A program made the translations under genes and the position numbers. A stretch of DNA of 62,091 nt from a virus (taxonomy: Duplodnaviria; Caudoviricetes), in IMG/VR virus record IMGVR_UViG_3300031228_000005, positions 1 to 62,091 of that record; one strand, given 5' to 3'. This document shows, one piece after another, positions 18,326-60,665 of the stretch (position 1 is the stretch's first letter; every line of letters starts with the position of its first letter). Under the pieces are notes generated by a model. The model searched no databases and was not told the DNA's origin. It was given only the letters and a program-made list of their open reading frames with translations.

Positions 18326-19156
18326 GTGAGTACCGAGTGCTATGAGATGGTTCGGGGCTCGGCCATCCGGGTTACTGAACTCGGTCGCCGGGGGCAGGTT
18401 CTGGACTCCATCCGCTACGCAACCTCCAAGGCGGTCGCCAAGGTCACGATCAACGAGGTGACCGAGACCGCCAAGAACGAGATCCTTCGCAACCCGGAGG
18501 AGGAGAAGCGCCTGCGCTTCGTTAGGTCTGCGCAGACGATCCGGTACACCGCTGGCATCGAGTTCCTTCGTGTGGACCCCGGAGTGCTTGGTCTCGTGGC
18601 CGGGGTGTCGCAGACTTCGAAGGGGGCGGCGGGCTTTGGAGAGGGTGCCTTCGGAGAGTTCCCGTTCGGTGATGGCATCGAAGGTACGGCGATCGGCTTC
18701 GACTCTGGCACCCGGCTTCCTACTACTGCCTTCGCGTTGGAGGTCTGGTCCAAACTGGCTGGGCAGCGGTGTGTGGATGGCAGCCCTATGTGGGGCTACA
18801 CCCTGTTCCCCTACCTACGGGGCGGTCGCTTGGGGGGATTCAAGTTCCACAACGGGCGCATATCCTTCAATCTCGTGGGCGCACAGACCCGGCGAGCGTC
18901 GCGGTGGGGTGTGGGGCCGTACGATCTTGGAGGCTCGTTCGAGCGGCTGATCGAGCCGGTTTCCAGAAACACGTCATGGAAGACGTTCATGACCCCCGCT
19001 GCACCACCAGCGGAGGTGTGTGGAATTCAAGAGACCGTCGATGTGCTGGACAATGGCACGGCGGCAGACCCGATGCCCCCGCCGAGTACGCTGCTCAGTG
19101 TGGATGGCGGCGGTGCAGTGACAGGATCATTCATCATCGACGGAGGACGAGCATGA
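18326..19156 (+). CDS. Major tail (tube) protein paralog
   Basis: Aligns by eye with 23346 ORF: MSTECY.VRGS.IRVT, FALE.WS, WGYT.FP.L.GGRLGGF, WGVGPYD. Confidence 0.8.
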   Translation: MSTECYEMVRGSAIRVTELGRRGQVLDSIRYATSKAVAKVTINEVTETAKNEILRNPEEEKRLRFVRSAQTIRYTAGIEFLRVDPGVLGLVAGVSQTSKGAAGFGEGAFGEFPFGDGIEGTAIGFDSGTRLPTTAFALEVWSKLAGQRCVDGSPMWGYTLFPYLRGGRLGGFKFHNGRISFNLVGAQTRRASRWGVGPYDLGGSFERLIEPVSRNTSWKTFMTPAAPPAEVCGIQETVDVLDNGTAADPMPPPSTLLSVDGGGAVTGSFIIDGGRA

Positions 19157-20124
19157 CGCACATCCAGCAACGACGAGACGACTCCGCTGTCTGGACCTCT
19201 GAGGACCCTGTGCTGTTCGAGGGCGAGGCCGGTCACGAGACGGACACTGGCAAGTGGAAGATGGGCGACGGCGTCACCGCGTGGACGGCCCTGCCGTACA
19301 AGAACGGCGTCGACTCCATCGACGGCGAGGTTGGTGTGGTCACGGGCTTCGCCAAGTTGGCGAGCCCAGCGTTCACCGGCAACCCCACCGCGCCCACCCC
19401 CTCCGCCGCTGACAACGACACATCCATCGCCACTACAGCGTTTGTTCAGGCGCAGAAGGCGAGTCCGGTTTTCACAGGCAACCCAACAGCCCCGACCCCG
19501 GCCACATCGGATGATGACACGTCCATCGCAACCACTGAGTATGTGCAGAATCAGATTGGGAGCGGTACCCGGCTCGACCCTGTCGCCACCCCCACCGTCG
19601 TTGACTACGACACTCTTACGTCGTCCGGTTGGTACTCCTTGGCCTCCGGGTCCGCCAACTCCCCGGACGGCGCGGTGTCGCACTACCTAGAGGTTCGCGC
19701 GTACAACGCCACGTACGTCGAGCAAACTGCCCGTGCTACGACTGCGGGGGATCAGTACCGGCGCACAATGGTTGCCGGGGTGTGGGGTGCGTGGATCTCC
19801 ATGGGCACCCCGTTCCCCGAAAGTGATGCGGGTTTCATAGGTGCTCCGAACGTGACCTCCACGGAGGGGCGGGTCTACCGGAGAGATGGGCAGGCTACCT
19901 TGCACATCGAGTTCACCACTACCGCCGCTATCTCGGCTGGGACGACACTGTTCACAGTCCCCAGTGGGTACCGACCACCCAAACGAATATTCCCGCTTGT
20001 CATGGGGGCGGGTGTGATTTACCTCGTGCAGATCAACACCGCCGGGGTGGCTGCCCTTGCCGGGGGCGCGCTTTCTAGTGGTGTTCAGCACCTAGGTTCT
20101 GTTTCTTACCGGCATGTGTTGTAA
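19153..20124 (+). CDS. Fibre/receptor-binding protein (Mtd_N-like N-terminus, GNPTAPT repeats, knob-like domain)
   Basis: IQQRRD...W...PVL.EGE.G.ETDTGK.K.GDG..W..LPY; two FTGNPTAPTP..DTSIATT repeats; TLFTVPSGYRP. Confidence 0.8.
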   Translation: MTHIQQRRDDSAVWTSEDPVLFEGEAGHETDTGKWKMGDGVTAWTALPYKNGVDSIDGEVGVVTGFAKLASPAFTGNPTAPTPSAADNDTSIATTAFVQAQKASPVFTGNPTAPTPATSDDDTSIATTEYVQNQIGSGTRLDPVATPTVVDYDTLTSSGWYSLASGSANSPDGAVSHYLEVRAYNATYVEQTARATTAGDQYRRTMVAGVWGAWISMGTPFPESDAGFIGAPNVTSTEGRVYRRDGQATLHIEFTTTAAISAGTTLFTVPSGYRPPKRIFPLVMGAGVIYLVQINTAGVAALAGGALSSGVQHLGSVSYRHVL

Positions 20125-23345: not shown

Positions 23346-24038
23346 ATGTCCACCGAATGTTACGCGCAGGTCCGGGGAAGCGTCATCCGCGTCACCCGGC
23401 TCGATTCCTGCGGAGACCCCGACCCCGGCTCGTCCGCCGTGGTCGTGTCCAAGCGCATCTCCACCGTCACCATCGAGGAGGTGACCGACGACGGCACCAA
23501 CGTCCGTGAGCGCAACTTCGCGGACGAGTTGTGCATCGTGGATGACGCCTTCACGTCGGTCATCGGCTACACCGCCGACATCGCCCTCTGCGGCGTCGAC
23601 CCCGGCCTGATCTCGCTCCTGACGGGTCAGCCGACCGTCACGAACGCGGCGGGCGACATCGTCGGCTTCGATGCCAACACCGGCATCGACCTCGACTCGT
23701 TCGGGTTCGCGCTGGAAATCTGGTCCCGCATCGCGGGCTCGGCGTGTGACCCGTCCGGCAACCGCAAGTGGGGTTACACCCCCTTCCCGTTCCTCAAGGG
23801 TGGTCGCCTCGGCGGCTTCTCCTTCGAGAACGGTGCGGTGCAGTTCACCATCTCGGGTGCTCAGACCCGCGACGGCAACGGCTGGGGCGTCGGCCCGTAC
23901 GACGTGGACCGTGACGAGTTGGGCGACCCCGCCCCGCTGCACACGCCGCTCGATGTCAACACGCACTACCGCAACATCGTCGTCTCGCTCGACCCGCCCG
24001 AGGCGTCCTGTGGGGCCTTCGCGCTGGCCTCGGCCTGA
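23346..24038 (+). CDS. Major tail (tube) protein
   Basis: IRVTRLDSCG, LCGVDP, WGVGPYDV; strong codon bias; followed by terminator. Confidence 0.85.
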   Translation: MSTECYAQVRGSVIRVTRLDSCGDPDPGSSAVVVSKRISTVTIEEVTDDGTNVRERNFADELCIVDDAFTSVIGYTADIALCGVDPGLISLLTGQPTVTNAAGDIVGFDANTGIDLDSFGFALEIWSRIAGSACDPSGNRKWGYTPFPFLKGGRLGGFSFENGAVQFTISGAQTRDGNGWGVGPYDVDRDELGDPAPLHTPLDVNTHYRNIVVSLDPPEASCGAFALASA

Positions 24039-24052
24039 CGCACGAGACCTAT

Positions 24053-24088
24053 CACGTGGGCCGCTCGGTTCTCCGGGTGGCCCACGTG
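24053..24088 (+). terminator. Hairpin terminator after major tail gene
   Basis: CACGTGGGCCGCTCGG-TTCT-CCGGGTGGCCCACGTG. Confidence 0.7.
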
Positions 24089-24130
24089 TCGGTCAGACAG
24101 AGTTTCCAGAAACCTGAGGAGATGTAGAGC

Positions 24131-24841
24131 ATGGGTACGTGGCCGGTACGAGGGCAGCAGAACCCCAACTTCTGGGACGACCAGTTGCGGGAGTACATCG
24201 ATGATGTTGATGCCAGCAAGGCCCCGCTTGATTCTCCTGTCTTCACGGGCAACCCCACCGCGCCAACACCAACCACCCTTGACGACGACACGAGCATCGC
24301 CACGACGGCCTTCGTGAGGGATCAGGGCTACGCCACCGAAACCTTCGTTACAGATGTTGTAGACGACTACGCACCACTGGCAAGCCCAGCGCTGACGGGC
24401 AACCCCACCGCGCCGACCCCGGACGTCGCTGACGACGACACGAGCATCGCCACGACTGCGTTTGTCAAGGACGCTATTGGCGGAAGTGCTATCGGCGGTG
24501 TGTGGGCGACTTGGGTTCCAACTATCACAGCCTCCTCGGGTACGTTCACCACGGTCAGTGGTGCGGGTCGGTATACCGTAATTGGGAAGATGCTTTTCTG
24601 GACATGCCAGATCGACATGACCACCATTGGGACCGCGAGTGGGGCGGTATTCATGACTCTCCCGATGGATGCCCGAGCAACGGTCACCCTCGTCGGTACT
24701 GGTCGAAGCCTCAACACCGGGGCGACTCTGAACGCCAAGAACGACACCTTCGACAAGGCCACCATCTTCAAATACGACTTGACTTCGGCCATCGGCGCGG
24801 GGCACTCCCTCATCCTGAGTGGCTTCTACGAACTTCCTTGA
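24131..24841 (+). CDS. Second fibre-like protein with GNPTAPT repeats
   Basis: Two SP..TGNPTAPTP..DDDTSIATTAFV repeats; C-terminal W.P...GRYTVIGK beta domain. Confidence 0.75.
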   Translation: MGTWPVRGQQNPNFWDDQLREYIDDVDASKAPLDSPVFTGNPTAPTPTTLDDDTSIATTAFVRDQGYATETFVTDVVDDYAPLASPALTGNPTAPTPDVADDDTSIATTAFVKDAIGGSAIGGVWATWVPTITASSGTFTTVSGAGRYTVIGKMLFWTCQIDMTTIGTASGAVFMTLPMDARATVTLVGTGRSLNTGATLNAKNDTFDKATIFKYDLTSAIGAGHSLILSGFYELP

Positions 24842-28876: not shown

Positions 28877-29803
28877 ATGCTCGTTCGGAAGATCCGTCGC
28901 CGTGGCGCGAACATCGTGGTCGAGGCTCACGGCGAGGTGCTGTTCGCCGCGACAGGTGACGTAGGCCGGTGGCAGAATCGGTTCAGCCACCGTGTTCGCG
29001 CGTTCGCTATGCAGGCGGCTCCGACCAACAAGCGCCCTAGGTGGGCGCACTACGGCAAGCCCCTCAAGTCGACGTTCACCGCCACCACTAAGTATCAAGA
29101 GGGGCGGATGCGGGTCTACAGCGCCATCGGCTCGTCGGCACCCCACGCCTACTACGTGGATCAGGGCACGGGCATCTATGGCGGGGGCGGTCCGTATGAG
29201 GCCAAGGTGCTCCCTCCGTGGACTCGTGGGGGTGCGAGCCTGTACGAGCACACGTGGCGTCCCACAGGTCCGGGTGGGCGCAAGGTCAAGCCGGTGATGA
29301 TCAAGGGGCAGAAGGGTCAGTTCTTCTTCGACAAGGGACTTCAACGAGCCTTCCAGTCCATGCGGATGCGTGCCTTTCAGGTCCCCGGTGATGCGAAGAT
29401 CACGAATGCGATCAACTCGATGCCGACAGGGATGGACAACTTTGCAGGTAACACTGTTTCGGATGGTGCTTTCACTGCACAGTTGAACGAGTGGCGTGCG
29501 TGGCGTGACGAGGCGTGGAGCAGGAATGACACACTTGGTAAGAGCGGGGGTCCACGGCCCGCTAAGCCCAAGAAGCCCAAGGCTGCGCCCAAGCCGAAGC
29601 CTGCCAAGACGACCAAGCCCACACGACCGAAGGGGTACCCGACCGTTGCGGCCAAGTGGGCGGCGGGGCTCAAGGTGTTCAAGAAACAGAACCCCGGCAT
29701 CAAGGTTCTTCCTGTCAGCACGGTTAACGGGCTGCACGTGCGGCTGCCGGATGGGCGCACCTTTGTCATCCCCCGCTCGAAGATTCTCAACCTCGCTCCG
29801 TAA
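28877..29803 (+). CDS. Neck/tail-completion (HK97 gp10-like) protein with basic extension
   Basis: HAYYVDQGTG, KGQKGQFFFDKGL; PKKPKAAPKPKPAK tail. Confidence 0.6.
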   Translation: MLVRKIRRRGANIVVEAHGEVLFAATGDVGRWQNRFSHRVRAFAMQAAPTNKRPRWAHYGKPLKSTFTATTKYQEGRMRVYSAIGSSAPHAYYVDQGTGIYGGGGPYEAKVLPPWTRGGASLYEHTWRPTGPGGRKVKPVMIKGQKGQFFFDKGLQRAFQSMRMRAFQVPGDAKITNAINSMPTGMDNFAGNTVSDGAFTAQLNEWRAWRDEAWSRNDTLGKSGGPRPAKPKKPKAAPKPKPAKTTKPTRPKGYPTVAAKWAAGLKVFKKQNPGIKVLPVSTVNGLHVRLPDGRTFVIPRSKILNLAP

Positions 29804-53828: not shown

Positions 53829-55855
53829 GCTTCCTCCTCGATGTCGAACATGGCCTCGGGCGGCTTGCCCTCCCAAGTCTTGCGGCGGTCACCCTCGGGT
53901 GCGATGACCGGGACCTTGTCGGGCTTGATGACCAGCGACTCGATCTGCGGGTAGACCTCCTTGCCCAGCACCTTCTCTGCCACGGTGGGACTGACCAGCG
54001 TGGGGTTGGTCCACAACTGGGTTAGCGTCTCGTCAGGCAGGGCAACACGCCCCTCCTCCACGGTGAGGGCGGGATCGAGTCGGTTGATGGCGTCACCCTT
54101 CCACGTACGACGCGGGGTGTAGTTGACCAACTGGTAGCCGGGCACGGACCCGCCCCGGTGCAGTCGGCGCTGCGCCTCGGCCTTGAGGTCCTTGTAGATG
54201 CTGTGCAGACCAGCGACCATGGTGAGCAGTTCGCCCAACTTGTCGTCCGGCAGTAGCGTGGTTTCTGGAAACGCACCCGGACCATCGGTGAACTCGGCGT
54301 CCACGATGGTGTCGAACAGACCCGCCGCCGACTCCACCCGCTGCTCAGTCAGTGCAGGGCACGAGCCACGAGCCGGGCACCACTGGCAGGCCAACTCACT
54401 CGGCTCGAAGGTGGCCCCCTCGTGTTGCCCGTACAGAGCCTTGGTCAGGGCCGGGGCCAGCACCTCGTCCCGCCACGTGAGCAGGTCGTCGATGGTCTCG
54501 GTCCACGTCTTGATGCCACCGAGCCGGGGCTGGATGATGTGGTAGACCACGTCCTCCACCCACATTGGAAGTTCGCCGGTCTCCTCGTCAGCCAGCAGTT
54601 CCAGCATGGCGAGCGCGTAGAGGCGGATCTGTGGGTTCTCATCCACGTCCACATCCTTGCCCTCGCCGTACTTGAGGTCGCCCACCACGAGCGACTTGGT
54701 CTCGGGGGTGCCGCCCTTGACGGGCAGACCCACGAAGTCAGCCGATCCACGCACGACGTAGACCTCACCCTCGTGCATGTCGGTGAGCGGGATGCCCGCC
54801 TCGCCACGTGACTCGATCAGGATGTGATCGTTGCCCCGCTCCTGTGCGTAGGACTTCACGAGGTCGACGTACTCCGCGACGTACTCTGCCATCTCGTCGT
54901 CGTACGCCTCACCCTCATCCTCGGGCAGGACGGACAACTCCATGAGCGTGTACTCGACCTCCTCGGCTGAGACACGACCTAGCACCATGTTCGCCTCGAC
55001 CTCGCCCACCGCGTGAGCCGTGGTCCCTTGCCGCGCAGCCGTGGTGCCGGATGCGAACGCCCGCTGCTGGTTGGGCGAGAGGGTTTCCAGAAACTCCCGG
55101 CTCAGGCTCAGGCTCATGGTGCAGTTCATCCAGCGCTCGGCACCGGACGGGCCAGCACCAGCGTGGTTGTCAAAGACGTAGTCCTTGACACCGGGGATAC
55201 CGAGGAACAGCGGAGGCGGGGTGGCTTCCTCACGGGCAGCCGCCATCTCCGCGAACATCTGCTCGGGGTCGAGCACGTCGCTGTCCACACCGGCATCATG
55301 CAACACCTCCTCGACCACGGCAACGGGAGCGCCATCGAGTTCGGTCAGCAGTCGCTCGATCTCGTCCGGGTGGTCAGCCTCGAAGCCTGCGTCCTCCCGC
55401 TCGTCGTACCCCTGCGGGACGAACGAGTGCGGCGGGTCAACCCTGTCGTGGGCCGACTCCTCGGTTCCGCACTTGCACGCGGGGTCGTCGTAGACCACAC
55501 CGTCAGGCAGTTCCTCCTCATCGAGGATGTCAAACATGGACTCACCCATCGGCTCGAAGGGGTTGGCGTAGTCCTCCTCGTCGGCCATGATGTCGAGGTC
55601 GTTGCGAACTTCAGGCTCCGCCTCGATGCGCTCGGTGTCGTCAGCGTCGTCGGGCTCGGGGCGCTCCTCTGCCTCACGAGCCAGCCGCTCCTCGCACACC
55701 ATGTCGATGAGGTCGGGCCACGAGACCTGAGCCCATGCCTCGGGGTCGGACTCGTAGCCGTGCGTGTTCACGAGTTCCTTGATCAGGTTCTTCTTGCTCA
55801 TGCCACCGGGCGCGGTGGGGTGAGCGTCGGGGTAAGCCGGATTCTGGCTGGTCAT
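53825..55855 (-). CDS. Cas4-like PD-(D/E)XK exonuclease (DUF2800-like) with long acidic N-terminal extension
   Basis: GPSGAERWMNC, GTTAH, GSAD, DLKYG, QIRLYA, CQWCPARGSC. Confidence 0.85.
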   Translation of the reverse strand: MTSQNPAYPDAHPTAPGGMSKKNLIKELVNTHGYESDPEAWAQVSWPDLIDMVCEERLAREAEERPEPDDADDTERIEAEPEVRNDLDIMADEEDYANPFEPMGESMFDILDEEELPDGVVYDDPACKCGTEESAHDRVDPPHSFVPQGYDEREDAGFEADHPDEIERLLTELDGAPVAVVEEVLHDAGVDSDVLDPEQMFAEMAAAREEATPPPLFLGIPGVKDYVFDNHAGAGPSGAERWMNCTMSLSLSREFLETLSPNQQRAFASGTTAARQGTTAHAVGEVEANMVLGRVSAEEVEYTLMELSVLPEDEGEAYDDEMAEYVAEYVDLVKSYAQERGNDHILIESRGEAGIPLTDMHEGEVYVVRGSADFVGLPVKGGTPETKSLVVGDLKYGEGKDVDVDENPQIRLYALAMLELLADEETGELPMWVEDVVYHIIQPRLGGIKTWTETIDDLLTWRDEVLAPALTKALYGQHEGATFEPSELACQWCPARGSCPALTEQRVESAAGLFDTIVDAEFTDGPGAFPETTLLPDDKLGELLTMVAGLHSIYKDLKAEAQRRLHRGGSVPGYQLVNYTPRRTWKGDAINRLDPALTVEEGRVALPDETLTQLWTNPTLVSPTVAEKVLGKEVYPQIESLVIKPDKVPVIAPEGDRRKTWEGKPPEAMFDIEEEA

Positions 55856-55901
55856 GTTGGACCTGTCCTGTCTGTGTTGGAACGGAAGCGTCACACCTCA
55901 T

Positions 55902-55911
55902 AGTGTAACAC
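55902..55911 (-). promoter_or_regulatory. Extended -10 promoter for nuclease operon
   Basis: GTGTTACACT on - strand. Confidence 0.6.
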
Positions 55912-55919
55912 GGTATGTG

Positions 55920-56309
55920 CTAGTCGTCCTGCCCGTTCAGGTTGTGCCCGACACACGGGCCGAACCCTTGAGCCACACTGGCAGCACAGGCCAGCATGAC
56001 CATGAACCCCTCGACATCGGCAGTGAACCCCCCGCATCCGCCAGCCGCCAGCACACGCCCGACGAACAGCCGCTGCTTGACGGTCGGCCCCTTGAGCAGG
56101 GCCTTCTCGACGGACTTGCCGTAGGTCTCGGGTGCCTTCACCTCGTTAGCGATGAACACACCATCGAGCACGCACAGCAGGTCGGACACACCGGCCTCCC
56201 CGAACTGCGAGCCGTGGTACTTCACGGTCACGAGCCGGTCGCCGTACTTGTCACGGCCAGCGTCGCGCTGCTTCTTGATCAGTTTGGTCTCGGGTCCTTC
56301 GCGTCCCAC
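55920..56309 (-). CDS. VRR-NUC / Holliday junction resolvase-like nuclease
   Basis: ET, K.HGS..AGVSDL, NEVK, Q..F. Confidence 0.8.
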   Translation of the reverse strand: MGREGPETKLIKKQRDAGRDKYGDRLVTVKYHGSQFGEAGVSDLLCVLDGVFIANEVKAPETYGKSVEKALLKGPTVKQRLFVGRVLAAGGCGGFTADVEGFMVMLACAASVAQGFGPCVGHNLNGQDD

Positions 56310-56494
56310 TACAGATCATCCTCCTCGAAGCATTCAGGGAGAGGCTTGTCCTGCTCCCACTTGGGTCCGGTCTTCCTTCCGGGGTTTCCAGAAACGGTGC
56401 TACGCCTAGCACGGCGTACAGCCCAGCCGATGATCAGGAAGATCACAGCCCATTCGATCAGACCGATGACCACCGGGCCGGTGAGCCCCTCCAT
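56309..56494 (-). CDS. Small membrane protein
   Basis: TM helix after MEGLTG. Confidence 0.55.
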   Translation of the reverse strand: MEGLTGPVVIGLIEWAVIFLIIGWAVRRARRSTVSGNPGRKTGPKWEQDKPLPECFEEDDL

Positions 56495-56495
56495 G

Positions 56496-56894
56496 TCACT
56501 CGTGCCACGGGCCGAAGTGACCAGACAGGACCATGTTGATTGCGACCGCCGTCTCGGAGTAGGTCTCCACGTTGACACCACGGGTGTACTCGTAGAAGGT
56601 CTCCGGGTCGCAGAGCGTCATGCTGATCGGCTCCCAGATGGCACCGTCCGACAGCACCACCCAAGCATGCCCGATAGCCACGGGCTCCGGTCCCTGCCAC
56701 ATGCCGTGGACCAGAGTGACCGGGGTCGGGAGACCCAGATACTCGATCTGCTCAGCCTTGTCCGGCCAGTCGGTGAATGCCCAAGCCGCGAGTTCGTAGC
56801 AGTGGGTCAGTCGTTCCCTGAGTACCGGCTTGTCGTCGGCCCCTGCATAGTCGAAGACGCACCGAGCACCCATCGAGAGCAGTACGTCGTTCAT
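56496..56894 (-). CDS. Hypothetical protein
   Basis: CYE...LVHG...GHAWV motif. Confidence 0.65.
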   Translation of the reverse strand: MNDVLLSMGARCVFDYAGADDKPVLRERLTHCYELAAWAFTDWPDKAEQIEYLGLPTPVTLVHGMWQGPEPVAIGHAWVVLSDGAIWEPISMTLCDPETFYEYTRGVNVETYSETAVAINMVLSGHFGPWHE

Positions 56895-57358
56895 CACAGC
56901 ACCCACTCCGCGAGGGAGAACGAGATGATTGCCACGATCAGCGCCACGAAGGCGAGACCACAGCACCACAGTGCTACTACCTCCCAGTCGACGCGCTGCC
57001 AGATCGTCGGCTTGGGCAGTCCGCCGTATCCCCGTCGAATCTCTCGCCGCTTGAGTGTGATCTTGAGACGGCGCGGCACCCAGCGCCACCACCACGGGCG
57101 AGGCTTGAACCGGGCCCCACCCGTGAGCAAGGCGAGCAGGTTGGGGTCGACATCAGACAGGCACATGTCCAGTGTGTACGTGTTCCTGATTCTGTCCCAC
57201 CCCTCGATGACTAGATCCTCGTCAGGGTCCGGGTGGATGTTCAGCGACACGGCGGTGCTGTCGAGCGTCAGCCCTTCCCCGATGGGGTTGCCCTGCTCAT
57301 CGAGTCGCCACACGGTGATCCCGTTTCCAGAAACCGTGATCTTCGGTTCGTCAGTCAT
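56894..57358 (-). CDS. Tail-tube-protein-like fragment fused to C-terminal TM helix
   Basis: ITVWRLDEQGNP and YTLDMCLSDVDPNLLALLTG match the major tail IRVTRLDSCGDP and YTADIALCGVDPGLISLLTG. Confidence 0.65.
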   Translation of the reverse strand: MTDEPKITVSGNGITVWRLDEQGNPIGEGLTLDSTAVSLNIHPDPDEDLVIEGWDRIRNTYTLDMCLSDVDPNLLALLTGGARFKPRPWWWRWVPRRLKITLKRREIRRGYGGLPKPTIWQRVDWEVVALWCCGLAFVALIVAIISFSLAEWVL

Positions 57359-57815
57359 GTTGCTTCGGTCCCTTCTCCTTCTGAATCCACGGAAGCCTCA
57401 CGGATGTGAAACCTCGGGCGATGCTGGCAGAGGCATAACCCCACTCGATCACACCCGCGTCGGCCAGTGCCGTGAGCAGGGTGGTGTACTTCTCGTTTGT
57501 GATCCCCTCAGGCACGTCCACGTACAGGTGGAAGTGGCCGGGGGTGGTGCTCGGCATCAGCCACGCGGGGTGGTCGATGTCCAGCACCAGTGCGTGACGT
57601 GCCTGTCCGTCTGGCGCGGTACTGTGCTGGCTCGTCACCACGTTGGCGTCTTGCAGGTCAGTGACGAATGCTCGGTCACCCGGTCGGTTATCATCCTTGG
57701 TCTGGCTGTCATCGTTGCCCCAGTCGAGCACGCGATACAGCCGCAACTTCAACGTGATCAGTTCGAGGAACTGCGAGCCGTAGGTGGAACTGCCAAGTCG
57801 CTGCTTGGTGATCAT
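57351..57815 (-). CDS. Hypothetical protein
   Basis: H..VLDID...PSTTPGHFHLY motif. Confidence 0.7.
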   Translation of the reverse strand: MITKQRLGSSTYGSQFLELITLKLRLYRVLDWGNDDSQTKDDNRPGDRAFVTDLQDANVVTSQHSTAPDGQARHALVLDIDHPAWLMPSTTPGHFHLYVDVPEGITNEKYTTLLTALADAGVIEWGYASASIARGFTSVRLPWIQKEKGPKQHD

Positions 57816-57993
57816 GGCTCGCACCTCCCACTCGGCAGAGCGTGGCCCGCGCACCACGTGTCATCGCAGTAGTACCAGCCCTCGTCGTAGTCCATGTCCT
57901 CGTCCTCGAACACAGTGGCCTCGTCCAACTCGGTGTCCTCGCCGTCGAGGTCCGCCCCGTGCTGTGCCTTGAGGTTCGCGTCGTAGTCCCTCA

Positions 57994-58266
57994 TCACACA
58001 CTCGCCTTGATGCGGTTCTCGCGCTCGGGTGCGTCGTACACCAGCACGAGGTTGCGGTACCTGAGCATGTGCTCCCACGTCTTGCCGTTGCCCCCGCCAG
58101 TGGAGTGCCACAGCCTGTCATCGAACCTGCGCTGCCACGCCTGACCGAAGGGGCCGTTGATCAGCACGATACTGCCGGGGTGCGGCTCGAACAGTTCAGC
58201 GGTGGGGAGTATGCATCGGGCTCGGTCGTCGGTCATGGGGATCAGGCGGCTGTTCATGGTGGTCAT
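57994..58266 (-). CDS. Hypothetical protein
   Basis: ORF in - strand operon. Confidence 0.6.
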   Translation of the reverse strand: MTTMNSRLIPMTDDRARCILPTAELFEPHPGSIVLINGPFGQAWQRRFDDRLWHSTGGGNGKTWEHMLRYRNLVLVYDAPERENRIKASV

Positions 58267-58335
58267 CTCTTGTCTCTCGTCTCTGTGTGGTGGGGTGTGA
58301 CGGGGATGCGGGTCGAAGACACCCCCGCCACACGT

Positions 58336-58593
58336 TCAGGTGGGGTCGGGCAGGCTCCGAAGAACCCGCTCGACCAGTTCGGGCTGATCGGTTTGGAAGC
58401 CGAGCAACAGGGCCGTCATGTCCAGCACTGCTTTGTTGTGCGCCCGCTTCTGGTCATTGCCCCCGTCCGTCAGCATGTCGGCTGCCAGATACAGCAGGCC
58501 CGTCGCCGGGATCGTGGTAGCCACAGCCCGGAGCAGGATCGCGAAGTCGCTGATCCTCGCGGGCTCCGGGTTTCCAGAAACTGCGCCGCTCAT
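58336..58593 (-). CDS. Hypothetical protein
   Basis: ATGA overlap with VWA stop. Confidence 0.6.
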   Translation of the reverse strand: MSGAVSGNPEPARISDFAILLRAVATTIPATGLLYLAADMLTDGGNDQKRAHNKAVLDMTALLLGFQTDQPELVERVLRSLPDPT

Positions 58594-60665
58594 AGCAGTG
58601 CCCTCGCCGCTTCGTCCCACACCTGCTCGGGGTGCTTCGCGTTGTAGCGCAGCACCTTGGAGGTACCCCGCTGGATCACGCAACCCCGCAGGATCTCGGG
58701 GAGGTTCGAGCCCCGGTCGGTGTAGTCGTGCGGTGCGACCGTGACCATGTTGACCCCGGCTGCCATCGCCTGACTGATCCTCGGACCCGAGTGCCGGGCG
58801 CCGAACAACTGCCAGTCGGTGAACTGCACCAGCAGGCGGTGCTCCGGTCGCTCCCCGATGTCGAAGAAGCCGGGCATCTGCTCCTCCACCAGATCGAGGG
58901 CCTCGGCCATGGCGCTCGTGCCCTCGGCGCACGGCACCTCGCGGATACCGGGGAGCGTCTGCCCGTTCTTCTGGATCACCCGAGCGTCGTTGCCCCAGTG
59001 GATCAGCGTCGACTCCAACTGCTGGCCTCGACCCGCGAAGTTGCGCAGGTCCAGAGCCGCGCTCGCCAGCGCCCAAGACAGCAGGGCACTCGGCTTCTGC
59101 AACTCGTTCATCGAGGACGACACATCCACGAGGATGGCGACCTTGACCGGAGGACTGGACTCGACCTCGCGGCGGGTGCGCTTGAAGAACCTCGGCTCAC
59201 GTGTTCCGCCGTCTGCCTTCCACGCGGCCAGCGCAGCGGCATCGACCGTCGCGCTCGGTGACTCGGACAGGGACACCACGCTCGTCTCCGTGGGGGAGAT
59301 GAGGTCGCGAAGGAATCGCTCGGCACCCTTCTGGATGTTGCGCTCCTCCTTGGTCGGGGCACGCCAGCCGCCACCCCTGTTGCCCTCGCCGCCAGCACCA
59401 CCGGACAGGCCACCCGTCTCCATCGGGGGAGTCTTGGCCTCCTCGTCCTTGGCCTCACCCTTGGCGTCGAACTTGGACCGGGCCTCCATCTCAGCCAGTT
59501 CCGCAGCCAGTTCCTCATCAGCCTCGGAGGGCTCGGTGCTATCGCTAGCACCGTCCTCATCCTCGCCCCCCTCGCTGTCCTCAGAGCCGTCTCCCGGCTC
59601 CTCGTCCTCGGGCTGGCCCTCTGCCCCACCGGACTCCTGCTCGGCGCTCTCGCCCCCCTCCTCGCCAGCCTCAGCCTCTGCGTCGAGGGTGCACTCATCG
59701 AACTCACACCCGGAGTTGGGCTGGGGCATGTCGTCGGCATCGGTTTCTGGAAACAGCAGGGCCAGCACGTCGCGAGCGTGGTCGATCATGGTTGACCCCT
59801 TGTCATCCTCGCACCGGAGCATGGCGATGAGCAGGTCCATGACGTGCTTGGTGTCGGCGTGTGCGTCACCGAGGACTCCGAGACCACCATCGTCCCGTTC
59901 AGACATGTGCTTCACCAGCGTCATGTGAAGCAGGGTCGTGAAGTCCTGCACCCAGTCACGCGGGGTGTGGCTGTTGTCGTGTGCGAACACCGCGATCTGT
60001 CGCCCGGCTCGCAGTGCCCACGAGGTGATCAGGTCCATGATCTTCTGGTTGGCATCGGTGATGGTGAGCACCGTGGTCGGGATCAGGTGGGCCGCGCTCG
60101 CACGCATGGTCCAGTCCAGCCCAGCCGCGCCGATCTTCGCAGCGTCGCGAGCCTGCAACCCCTCGATGCGCGGCTCCTCCATCATCCGGGCCAGTGCGAT
60201 GATCGCCTTGGTCGGCACGGCCCCGTCGCTGTGACGGGCGGGCGTGACCCTCGCCTGCTCGGCGGTGCGGGGCAGCCAGTGCGAGTGCCGTGCGTGGCCC
60301 GCCTCGTGCAACATGCACCCGGTGAGCACCGCCTCCTGCCGCAGCCGGAACGGGGTCACCGTGTTGAGCACCCGGTGCGGGTTGAGGATCAGCGACTCGT
60401 GGAACGTGAAGGTCCGGGTCGTGTGGTCCACGTCCGCGAACGGGCTGGCGCTGGGGGTGCCGAACACCAGCGTGGCGTCGGACCAGCCACTCCACTCGCG
60501 GATCTTCTTGTTCAGTGCTCGGATCGCGTCACCGGAAATCTGCACTGGCTGTACCTCGACAGGCGCGGGCTTCTCAGGTGCAGCCGGGGTGGTGCTAGGC
60601 GTAGCACCGGCTGCCTTGGTGGACGGGGTGCCGAGTGCGTTGGAGACATCTTGCTTGAGACCCAT
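58590..60665 (-). CDS. VWA-domain protein (CobT-like) with HExxH motif
   Basis: HEAGH...EEPRIE, acidic linker, MIDAS DVSSSM, GT, QFTD. Confidence 0.85.
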   Translation of the reverse strand: MGLKQDVSNALGTPSTKAAGATPSTTPAAPEKPAPVEVQPVQISGDAIRALNKKIREWSGWSDATLVFGTPSASPFADVDHTTRTFTFHESLILNPHRVLNTVTPFRLRQEAVLTGCMLHEAGHARHSHWLPRTAEQARVTPARHSDGAVPTKAIIALARMMEEPRIEGLQARDAAKIGAAGLDWTMRASAAHLIPTTVLTITDANQKIMDLITSWALRAGRQIAVFAHDNSHTPRDWVQDFTTLLHMTLVKHMSERDDGGLGVLGDAHADTKHVMDLLIAMLRCEDDKGSTMIDHARDVLALLFPETDADDMPQPNSGCEFDECTLDAEAEAGEEGGESAEQESGGAEGQPEDEEPGDGSEDSEGGEDEDGASDSTEPSEADEELAAELAEMEARSKFDAKGEAKDEEAKTPPMETGGLSGGAGGEGNRGGGWRAPTKEERNIQKGAERFLRDLISPTETSVVSLSESPSATVDAAALAAWKADGGTREPRFFKRTRREVESSPPVKVAILVDVSSSMNELQKPSALLSWALASAALDLRNFAGRGQQLESTLIHWGNDARVIQKNGQTLPGIREVPCAEGTSAMAEALDLVEEQMPGFFDIGERPEHRLLVQFTDWQLFGARHSGPRISQAMAAGVNMVTVAPHDYTDRGSNLPEILRGCVIQRGTSKVLRYNAKHPEQVWDEAARALL

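What the first reader, a model, noticed from the sequence alone, without database searches (positions are those of the whole stretch)
56894..57358. Membrane-anchored truncated tail-tube homolog in the non-structural arm
Seen: VSGNGITVWRLDEQGNP vs VRGSVIRVTRLDSCGDP, and YTLDMCLSDVDPNLLALLTG vs YTADIALCGVDPGLISLLTG, in the same order and at similar spacing. These are followed by a basic Trp-rich stretch and a TM helix in place of the second half of the fold. Inference: a dominant-negative decoy that traps tail subunits of competing phages, a superinfection-exclusion factor, or a membrane nucleator for tail assembly.
Basis: partly seen in the sequence, partly recalled or inferred. Interest (0 to 1): 0.72.

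Follow-up and report, generated by a model that had tools for sequence, protein, structure and literature searches.

The report
Membrane-anchored half tail-tube protein family
An uncultured soil phage carries, among its early replication genes, a small membrane-anchored protein whose front half is an old, diverged copy of the front half of the phage's major tail protein; it belongs to an undescribed family that may mimic the tail subunit, but its function has not been tested.

Summary
ORF 56894-57358 (minus strand, 154 aa) is a real, translationally coupled gene in the replication arm of a complete 62-kb phage genome. Residues about 6-84 are homologous to the N-terminal 100 residues of the phage's phrog_792 "major tail protein" (23346-24038). 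BLASTP gives E 2e-5, and profile-profile comparison rises to 97.8% probability, E 9e-13. An HMM of the small family gave 53 matches in 46 of 50 related phage records searched: 46 on the tail-protein N-terminus, 4 on a likely paralog and 3 on small family genes. After the domain come a Trp/Arg-rich stretch (net charge +12) and a C-terminal transmembrane helix, which predicts a tail-anchored protein with the domain in the cytoplasm. It is not a recent partial copy of this phage's tail gene. It belongs to a family of 31 small proteins from metagenomes that has no Pfam, PHROG or NCBIfam family and no match in cultured phages, and this family forms its own clade. It is an accessory gene: the three closest complete relatives lack a full-length copy. 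Function is inferred only. It keeps strands β1-β3 and helix α1 of the canonical tube fold and lacks β4-β6, which fits a non-polymerising mimic or "poison subunit" (about 0.3). Rivals are a decoy for host sensors and an unrelated role for a reused domain. The tube fold itself could not be verified here. Complex prediction gave no verdict.

The parts
56894..57358 (-). ORF154: 154-aa gene encoding the tail-protein-like domain, a Trp/Arg-rich segment and a C-terminal TM anchor
   Evidence: ORF list. Codon-position GC is 0.60/0.47/0.80, like neighbouring genes. Stop/start overlaps with both neighbours. 30 homologues in metagenomes.
57107..57343 (-). Residues 6-84: domain homologous to the N-terminal half of the major tail protein (predicted beta1-beta3 plus helix alpha1, with a shortened beta2-beta3 loop)
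   Evidence: BLASTP E 2e-5. hhalign 97.8%, E 9.3e-13. HMM matches to tail-protein N-termini in 46 of 50 related records. AF2 strands 7-9, 14-19, 25-32, 39-41 and helix 72-79.
56987..57118 (-). Residues 81-124: Trp/Arg-rich basic segment (net +12, 5 Trp), predicted helical, containing the family motif that ends in ...RRGYGG
   Evidence: Composition. AF2 helices 89-93 and 96-110. The segment is conserved across the family alignment.
56897..56986 (-). Residues 125-154: C-terminal transmembrane helix (tail anchor); the basic flank is on the N-terminal side, so the domain is predicted to be cytoplasmic
   Evidence: Kyte-Doolittle maximum 2.92 at residues 127-145. AF2 helix 125-153, pLDDT 94-96. The topology is inferred from the positive-inside rule.
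23346..24038 (+). Major tail protein (phrog_792, Rosebush gp21-like), the full-length homologue; residues about 7-97 (23364-23636) align with ORF154
   Evidence: phrog_792 E 3e-67. BLASTP to Rosebush gp21 'major tail protein' E 2e-21. 862 phage records match, and the listed ones are annotated as major tail protein.
18326..19156 (+). Second full-length phrog_792 paralog (40% identical to 23346-24038), a weaker relative of ORF154
   Evidence: phrog_792 E 2.9e-30. BLASTP to the tail protein E 7e-51. BLASTP to ORF154 E 0.028, second motif only.
57812..57994 (-). 60-aa gene two genes upstream. Its two short modules are fused to the N-terminus of the tail-protein-like domain in other family members.
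   Evidence: BLASTP to P0124 E 2e-8, P0138 E 3e-6, P0133 E 2e-4. Its start overlaps the stop of the gene before it by one base, and its stop overlaps the next gene's start by four bases.
57351..57815 (-). 154-aa gene (phrog_10893, unknown function) directly upstream; its stop overlaps the ORF154 start by 8 nt
   Evidence: PHROG E 7.8e-22 (scanned from the upstream GTG). Start reassigned from the sequence.
56496..56894 (-). 132-aa gene of unknown function directly downstream; its ATG shares one base with the ORF154 stop codon
   Evidence: Sequence. No Pfam, PHROG, PADLOC or NCBIfam family.
56309..56494 (-). 61-aa small TM protein that ends the variable cassette; conserved in the relative L003
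   Evidence: Sequence. A homologous C-terminal part is in L003 ORF 4356-4688.

Best explanation
Shown: ORF154 is an expressed-type gene, tightly coupled within the minus-strand replication operon of a complete, probably lytic, soil actinophage-like genome. Its product has three parts. The first is an acidic N-terminal domain (net charge -11) homologous to the first half of the phrog_792 major tail protein. The second is a Trp/Arg-rich helical segment (net +12). The third is a C-terminal TM helix. It belongs to an undescribed family of small proteins that split from the full-length tail proteins long ago and is scattered sporadically among related phages. Inferred: the protein is tail-anchored in the cytoplasmic membrane with the tail-protein-like half-domain facing the cytoplasm. 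There it acts as a non-polymerising mimic of the tube subunit. In the canonical tube fold it would keep beta1, beta2, beta3 and alpha1, that is, the beta2 edge that pairs with beta5.2 of a neighbour in the ring. It would lack its own beta4-beta6 and much of the beta2-beta3 loop that makes ring-to-ring contacts. It could therefore dock onto a free tube subunit or a growing ring without allowing the next subunit to add, and would hold the complex at the membrane. The likely use of such an accessory, early-expressed gene is interference with tail assembly of a co-infecting or superinfecting related phage, or dampening of premature tube polymerisation.
For: Homology to the tail-protein N-half. The residues most conserved in the family (R18, L19, D20, G23, P25, G27, P72, L78, G80) match positions that are invariant or nearly invariant in tail proteins (R15, T17, L19, D20, G23, V84, P86). 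Absence of the C-terminal half: the tail-protein invariants W126, G143, Y144, W180, G181, G183 and P184 have no counterpart, and the alignment ends at family column 86. Canonical fold order and the roles of beta2-beta5.2 and the beta2-beta3 loop: review PMC8718954, passages read. Secondary-structure order agrees in both AF2 runs, though the tail-protein model has low confidence. Membrane anchor and charge asymmetry. Accessory status: the relative L003/G002 has one unrelated gene at the syntenic site, and 0 of the 3 closest complete relatives (G001, G002, G005) have a full-length copy. Operon coupling and absence of an internal promoter or terminator.
Against: No binding to the tail protein has been shown. 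The tail-tube identity and fold of phrog_792 were not verified: the AF2 model of the tail protein had pLDDT 33, and there is no PDB relative by sequence. The domain is only about 31-35% identical to this phage's tail protein and sits in a separate clade, equally far from all tail proteins sampled, so no target specificity is visible. Early expression of a tube poison would also threaten the phage's own tails. Many family members have no TM helix and carry only a very basic tail, which would equally suit nucleic-acid or membrane-surface binding unrelated to tails. Half of a beta-sandwich may not fold as in the parent; N-domain pLDDT was 57-89.
Confidence: 0.3

Rival explanations
1. Reused domain with a role unrelated to tails. 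The half-domain is only a scaffold, and the conserved Trp/Arg-rich or Arg-rich tail is the working part. It would tether something, such as DNA, RNA or a replication protein, to the membrane surface, or act on the membrane itself, as part of the early replication programme.
For: The gene lies inside the replication operon. The basic segment is the second conserved feature of the family. Members without a TM helix end in strongly Arg-rich tails: G030 101 aa, G036. Other members sit next to terminase or regulatory genes rather than in one fixed context. Short Cys/His modules are fused N-terminally in several members.
Against: The family keeps exactly the most conserved tail-protein motifs over a long divergence. 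No nucleic-acid-binding or membrane-active family was detected. The membrane-anchored replication organiser of phage phi29 (p16.7) is an analogy from memory only.
Confidence: 0.25
2. Anti-defence decoy. The tethered half-domain imitates the tail protein towards a host immune sensor that detects tail-tube proteins. It would occupy or mislocalise the sensor before the late genes produce the real trigger.
For: Tail-tube proteins are triggers of several defence systems: DSR2 (abstracts seen in the listing), HigBAC, which senses lambda gpV through its flexible 50-78 loop (passages read), and Avs16, which contacts the tube protein's beta-hairpin (passages read). ORF154 is early, accessory and sporadically distributed, as anti-defence genes often are.
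Against: The part shortened in ORF154 relative to the tail protein is the beta2-beta3 region, which is the epitope used by the two sensors whose contact site is described. No known anti-defence or defence family matched. No such sensor is known here for the unknown host.
Confidence: 0.15
3. Assembly factor for the phage's own tail: a membrane nucleator, or a holdase that keeps the tail protein monomeric until the initiator complex is ready.
For: Homology to the tail-protein N-half and membrane tethering.
Against: It is encoded about 33 kb from the tail genes on the other strand, inside the replication operon. The closest complete relatives, which have 77-85% identical tail proteins, lack it, and 862 cultured phages with this type of tail protein have no copy detectable by tblastn.
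Confidence: 0.1
4. Non-functional remnant or spurious ORF in GC-rich DNA.
For: High-GC DNA gives many long chance ORFs, for example the 672-aa plus-strand ORF over the same region.
Against: Codon-position GC is typical of coding sequence. 30 homologues show a domain-wise conservation pattern. Start and stop are coupled to the neighbours. The N-terminal residues are conserved across most of the family.
Confidence: 0.03

Closest known systems
phrog_792 major tail protein (Mycobacterium phage Rosebush gp21, Microbacterium phage Squash gp30 type)
   Same: Homologous over the first 80-100 residues, with the same order of motifs from the same N-terminal offset.
   Different: ORF154 lacks the whole C-terminal half with its invariant Trp/Gly/Pro positions and has about 17 fewer residues in the predicted beta2-beta3 region. 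It carries a basic Trp/Arg segment and a TM anchor, is encoded in the replication arm, and forms a separate clade.
Canonical siphophage/GTA tail-tube fold (beta-sandwich + alpha-helix + long beta2-beta3 loop; review PMC8718954)
   Same: The predicted order strand-strand-(loop)-strand-helix matches beta1, beta2, loop, beta3, alpha1.
   Different: Only half of the fold is present. The fold of neither protein was verified here.
Membrane superinfection-exclusion proteins of phages (for example HK97 gp15, T4 Imm, P22 SieA; recalled, no call)
   Same: Small phage-encoded membrane proteins outside the structural module that may act against other phages.
   Different: Those block DNA entry at the envelope. 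ORF154's domain is predicted to be cytoplasmic, it resembles a tail subunit, and it shows no sequence relation to any known family.
Structural-protein paralogs used for interference (for example capsid-like Ccm of PICI satellites; recalled, no call)
   Same: The idea of a diverged copy of a virion subunit that meddles with assembly.
   Different: ORF154 is only a half-domain, it is membrane-tethered, it is carried by a phage rather than a satellite, and its effect on assembly is unproven.
Phage counter-measures to tail-tube sensing (DSAD1 against DSR2; abstracts in the listing)
   Same: An early accessory phage protein connected with recognition of tail-tube proteins.
   Different: As recalled (no call), DSAD1 is not a tail-tube homologue. 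No sensor is known for this host.

Membership tests
phrog_792 / Rosebush gp21-type major tail protein | Full-length match to the family profile | tested here: not met
   PHROG scan: E 0.27, 11.4 bits, residues 54-81 only. The true tail protein scores E 3e-67 over residues 2-228.
phrog_792 / Rosebush gp21-type major tail protein | N-terminal conserved motifs (R-x-T-x-L-D...G-x-P; V-D-P...L...T-G) at the N-terminus | tested here: met
   hhalign 97.8%, E 9.3e-13. Conserved columns compared.
phrog_792 / Rosebush gp21-type major tail protein | C-terminal half with invariant W126, G143-Y144, W180-G181-x-G183-P184 | tested here: not met
   The alignment ends at ORF154 residue about 84. The rest is a basic segment and a TM helix.
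phrog_792 / Rosebush gp21-type major tail protein | Encoded in the virion structural module between the capsid genes and the head-tail adaptor | tested here: not met
   ORF154 lies in the minus-strand replication operon. The tail protein and its paralog lie at 23346 and 18326 among capsid genes, as in Squash and Rosebush.
Canonical tail-tube fold | Beta-sandwich flanked by a helix, shown by structure comparison | tested here: inconclusive
   The AF2 model of the tail protein had pLDDT 33. The VIA-align wide search of the ORF154 model was dominated by the long helix, best Z 4.5. Foldseek against BFVD found nothing at E<=0.001. There are no PDB relatives by sequence. The language-model neighbours of the tail protein include tube families PF27173 and PF04630 at 0.93-0.94 (a lead only).
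New family of small tail-protein-N-half proteins (31 members at 50% clustering) | Core domain of about 75 residues plus a following Trp/Arg-rich basic segment; total length 87-207 aa | tested here: met
   Exhaustive HMMER search: 31 small proteins among 45 hits at E<=1e-3. Alignment A3. ORF154 is 30-67% identical to the others.
New family of small tail-protein-N-half proteins (31 members at 50% clustering) | C-terminal TM helix | tested here: met
   Present in ORF154. By eye it is present in only 4 of 31 members (P0001, P0124, P0128, P0142), so it marks a subgroup rather than defining the family.
Superinfection-exclusion / known defence or anti-defence families | Sequence match to a described family | tested here: not met
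   PADLOC: 0 families for ORF154 and 5 neighbours. Pfam, PHROG and NCBIfam gave none.
Superinfection-exclusion / known defence or anti-defence families | Protection against a second phage | not testable with these tools
   Needs expression in a host and phage challenge.

The most novel reading that the evidence does not exclude
Phages of this lineage carry a dedicated, fast-evolving family of 'poison subunits'. These are membrane-tethered halves of the tail-tube protein, made early in infection, that cap or sequester tube subunits of rival phages, or blind host sensors of tube protein. That would be a new class of inter-virus or anti-immune weapon built from a fragment of a virion protein. The conserved ...RRGYGG end, which is the natural C-terminus in 8 of 31 members and is followed by the TM extension in ORF154, might mark a processing or release site.
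Probability: 0.2. Interest if true: 0.8.

Novelty: new variant of a known kind. Interest (0 to 1): 0.55.

Why it matters
Fragments of virion proteins reused as accessory factors are rarely documented. Here the homology is statistically solid, the family is undescribed (no Pfam, PHROG or NCBIfam family, and no copy in 50,697 cultured-phage records), and the architecture suggests a testable mechanism: a docking edge retained, the propagating half lost, and a tether to the cytoplasmic face of the membrane. If the mimic idea holds, it would add a new way in which phages interfere with each other's assembly or evade sensors of structural proteins. It would also give a handle on which surface of this widespread actinophage tail protein drives polymerisation. 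If it fails, the family is still a clear case of reuse of half a tail-protein domain.

Tried and rejected
Cultured-phage searches found nothing for ORF154 (megablast of 55800-58300; tblastn), for family members P0144 and P0124, or for the 308-aa ORF 28877-29803.

The search for related loci found no relative with A1, with A4 in viral contigs or in metagenome contigs, or with the upstream 168-aa ORF. Genomic context is therefore known for only three further members, all reached through the genome search.

The word-index search found only one homologue, P0002. The exhaustive search was needed to find the rest.

The 13 long multi-stretch hits were set aside as artefacts of summed repeats. Of the 3 long hits scanned, P0135 and P0150 are MucBP repeat proteins and P0126 matched only scattered domains. 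P0165 (219 aa, two stretches), the fourth protein scanned, had no family and was also left out of the family.

The N-domain could therefore not be folded alone, and the tail protein could not be re-folded with the deeper alignment A5.

Several searches were uninformative. The VIA-align wide search of the ORF154 model matched only the long helix (best Z 4.5). Foldseek against BFVD had no match at E<=0.001. The ESM Atlas gave no usable hit for ORF154. PDB sequence searches with A2, A3 and A5 found nothing meaningful.

Complex prediction of the tail protein (A5) with ORF154 residues 1-88 (A3) returned 'no answer' (score 0.00, controls not run). This is no evidence either way.

PADLOC and NCBIfam gave nothing for the cassette. 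The consensus scan found no promoter-like site, and no terminator-like site on the gene's strand, in 55800-58700; its one terminator-like match lies on the opposite (+) strand at 56258-56270, no more than the shuffles give.

No RNA holder is listed among the sequencing runs. Laying contigs showed only that the sample's own runs, and three identical 151-bp contigs of a second soil study, hold parts of ORF154; parts without cover mean nothing.

The search of earlier findings by sequence returned nothing.

Rosebush gp17 (the capsid decoration protein of PMC7150772, passages read) was considered as the true identity of the 23346 protein and rejected: BLASTP E 5.1 to gp17 against 2e-21 to gp21. That paper's supplementary mass-spectrometry tables, which might show gp21 in virions, were not seen.

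The 308-aa ORF 28877-29803 was considered as the real tube protein. It shows no relation to phrog_792 (hhalign 0.1%) and has no family, so it remains unresolved.

Searches for prior description were tail tube / superinfection exclusion / decoy / paralog; major tail protein / N-terminal domain / truncated homolog / phage. No paper describing such a family was listed. One search found 0 papers.
Full report
What the window is. The window is a whole IMG/VR virus record of 62,091 bp, rated 100% complete, with 63.8% G+C. The plus-strand arm holds the following genes:
- terminase, portal and a MuF/protease fusion;
- a phrog_792 protein (18326-19156) followed by a fibre-like gene;
- a phrog_777 capsid protein and a phrog_779 protein;
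- a second phrog_792 protein (23346-24038) followed by a fibre-like gene;
- the head-tail adaptor, chaperones, tape measure and minor tail proteins.

This is the gene order of Mycobacterium phage Rosebush and Microbacterium phage Squash, where the phrog_792 gene is annotated as the major tail protein. The minus-strand arm holds an AAA_5 ATPase, a large acidic 691-aa protein, a DUF2800/PD-(D/E)XK exonuclease, an endonuclease-like protein, a gp2.5-like SSB, DNA polymerase, helicase and primase. The finding lies in this replication arm.

The gene is real. ORF154 (56894-57358, minus strand) has the codon-position G+C pattern of coding DNA in this genome, 0.60/0.47/0.80, matching its neighbours. 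Its ATG overlaps the stop of the upstream gene by 8 nt, and its stop shares one base with the ATG of the downstream gene. The whole stretch from 58266 to 55920 is a chain of such overlaps. It has no promoter-like site and no terminator-like site on the gene's strand. The 199-aa ORF that overlaps ORF154 in the list is the downstream 132-aa gene extended to an upstream GTG.

BLASTP of ORF154 against the 230-aa phrog_792 protein gives E 2e-5 for residues 1-80 against 1-94. Significance rises as the profiles deepen:
- 94.6%, E 6.6e-8 with two small proteins against 27 close tail proteins;
- 96.9%, E 1.5e-10 with the 31-member family;
- 97.8%, E 9.3e-13 against a 50-row tail-protein alignment spanning 35-89% identity.

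The family profile also finds the N-terminus of Rosebush gp21 (77%, E 2e-5 against that single sequence). As an independent and specific test, an HMM of the family was searched through 50 of the 80 related IMG/VR records found. It matched 46 of the 50, with 53 matches in all. Of these, 46 start 0-13 residues from the start of the tail-protein match. Four lie on a second 281-354 aa frame about 5 kb away, the relative position of the window's own paralog. Three lie on small family genes. None lies anywhere else. The best PHROG hit of ORF154 alone is also phrog_792, though weak (E 0.27).

Residues 81-124 carry 14 Arg+Lys and 5 Trp (net +12). Residues 125-154 form a strongly hydrophobic helix (Kyte-Doolittle 2.92; AF2 pLDDT 94-96). 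The N-domain has net charge -11. With the basic flank before the TM helix and only a few residues after it, the positive-inside rule predicts a tail-anchored protein with its domain in the cytoplasm. This topology is inferred.

ORF154 belongs to an old family and is not a recent partial copy.
- The word-index search found one homologue.
- The exhaustive HMMER search over 1.84 billion representatives found 45 hits at E<=1e-3. Of these, 31 are small proteins of 87-207 aa and form one family.
- The other hits are 13 long multi-stretch proteins and one 219-aa two-stretch protein, all set aside. Four of them were scanned against Pfam: two are MucBP repeat proteins, one matched only scattered domains and the 219-aa protein had no family.
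- The family shares the core of about 75 residues and a following Trp/Arg-rich segment.
- Eight of the 31 end exactly at ...YGG.
- Four of the 31 (by eye) go on to a TM helix.
- Several carry short acidic or Cys/His-rich N-terminal modules.
- Two of those modules occur in the window as a separate 60-aa gene (57812-57994) two genes upstream (E 2e-8, 3e-6 and 2e-4). This link between the two genes is of the gene-fusion kind.

In a tree of the N-domains (83 rows, 95 columns, quick search), the 33 small proteins and the 50 tail proteins fall on opposite sides of one branch (SH-aLRT 94). With so few columns the inner order is unresolved, and the root is unknown. The family has no Pfam, PHROG, NCBIfam or PADLOC model and no tblastn match in 50,697 cultured-phage records.

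ORF154 is an accessory gene. In the relative L003/G002 (exonuclease 56% identical, tail protein 82% identical), the stretch between the conserved 87-90 aa gene and the conserved small TM gene holds one unrelated gene. In the window the same stretch holds four genes: the 60-aa gene, the phrog_10893 gene, ORF154 and the 132-aa gene. Of the three closest complete relatives (G001, G002, G005), none has a full-length copy. G001 has a 95-aa fragment-like member downstream of its exonuclease that keeps only the second motif and the Trp/Arg segment. Two more distant records carry members near their terminase genes, both with Arg-rich tails and no TM helix.

How it may work. According to the review of major tail proteins (PMC8718954, passages read), the shared fold runs beta1, beta2, a long beta2-beta3 loop, beta3, an alpha-helix, then beta4 to beta6. 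Rings close through beta2-beta5.2 pairing, and rings stack mainly through the beta2-beta3 loop and the N-terminus. The predicted secondary structure of the phrog_792 protein (strands 12-19, 25-35, 37-46, 53-58, 61-66 and 74-82; helix 86-93; low confidence) and of ORF154 (strands 7-9, 14-19, 25-32 and 39-41; helix 72-79) fits this order. The roughly 17 residues missing from ORF154 fall in the loop/hairpin region. ORF154 would therefore keep one docking edge and lose the other, together with much of the stacking loop. That is the logic of a capping or poison subunit, here tied to the membrane. This is my leading reading at about 0.3, and none of it is shown.

Several points count against it. The fold is unverified. 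The domain is about equally distant from all tail proteins sampled. The phage's own tails would be at risk. Many members have only a basic tail.

The rivals are as follows:
- A reused domain with a membrane or nucleic-acid role in the replication programme (0.25).
- A decoy for host sensors of tube proteins (0.15). Such sensors exist: DSR2, HigBAC and Avs16. However, the two with described contact sites use the loop that ORF154 has shortened.
- An assembly factor for the phage's own tail (0.1), which fits poorly with the gene's sporadic distribution.
- A non-functional ORF (0.03).

Comparison with known things, and verdict. ORF154 is not a member of phrog_792. It fails the full-length profile match, lacks the C-terminal half and lies outside the structural module. 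It is a partial homologue of that family. It resembles known superinfection-exclusion proteins only in being small, membrane-bound and phage-encoded, and its predicted topology argues against blocking DNA entry from outside. The nearest concept is a virion-protein paralog used for interference (recalled from the satellite literature, no call). I rate it a new variant of a known kind, interest 0.55. The observation and the homology are solid and the family is undescribed, but the mechanism is open.

I confirmed these and used them in reading the HMM matches.

Noticed in passing
family alignment A3; window 57019-57036 (ORF154 residues 108-113): Eight of 31 family members end exactly at the motif ...RRGYGG, while ORF154 and P0124 continue past the same motif into a TM-bearing extension. 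Whether this is a processing site, two isoforms, or a split into two genes is unexplained; the contigs could not be fetched.
   Followed up: no
window 57812-57994 (-): A 60-aa gene made of an acidic N-terminal module and a Cys/His module. Both occur fused in front of the tail-protein-like domain in other family members, which suggests that the two window genes work together.
   Followed up: partly
window 57351-57815 (-): A phrog_10893 protein of unknown function sits between the 60-aa gene and ORF154. Its sequence shows an acidic D-x-D stretch followed by a Gly-His-x-His stretch, reminiscent (from memory) of primase-polymerase motifs. No family hit supports this.
   Followed up: no
window 28877-29803 (+): A 308-aa ORF directly upstream of the tail chaperones has no PHROG, Pfam or NCBIfam family and no tblastn match in cultured phages. 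It is unrelated to phrog_792 by hhalign. Squash and Rosebush have no gene of this size at that place. It could be an additional tail component.
   Followed up: partly
window 18326-20124 and 23346-24841 (+): There are two phrog_792 paralogs (40% identical), each followed by a fibre-like gene that matches tail-fibre PHROGs. The same two-copy spacing of about 5 kb recurs in 4 related records.
   Followed up: partly
L116:4307-4594 (G001): A 95-aa gene downstream of the exonuclease in a close relative keeps only the second motif of the domain and a Trp/Arg-rich segment. It is a further-truncated family member.
   Followed up: partly
window 56309-56494 (-) and L003:4356-4688: A small TM protein with a conserved acidic C-terminal tail is shared by the window and its relative, and marks the downstream edge of the variable cassette.
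   Followed up: no
window 56744-57331: Three 151-bp contigs from a soil run of a second study are identical to parts of ORF154 and its downstream junction. The gene therefore occurs outside the source sample, at low depth.
   Followed up: no
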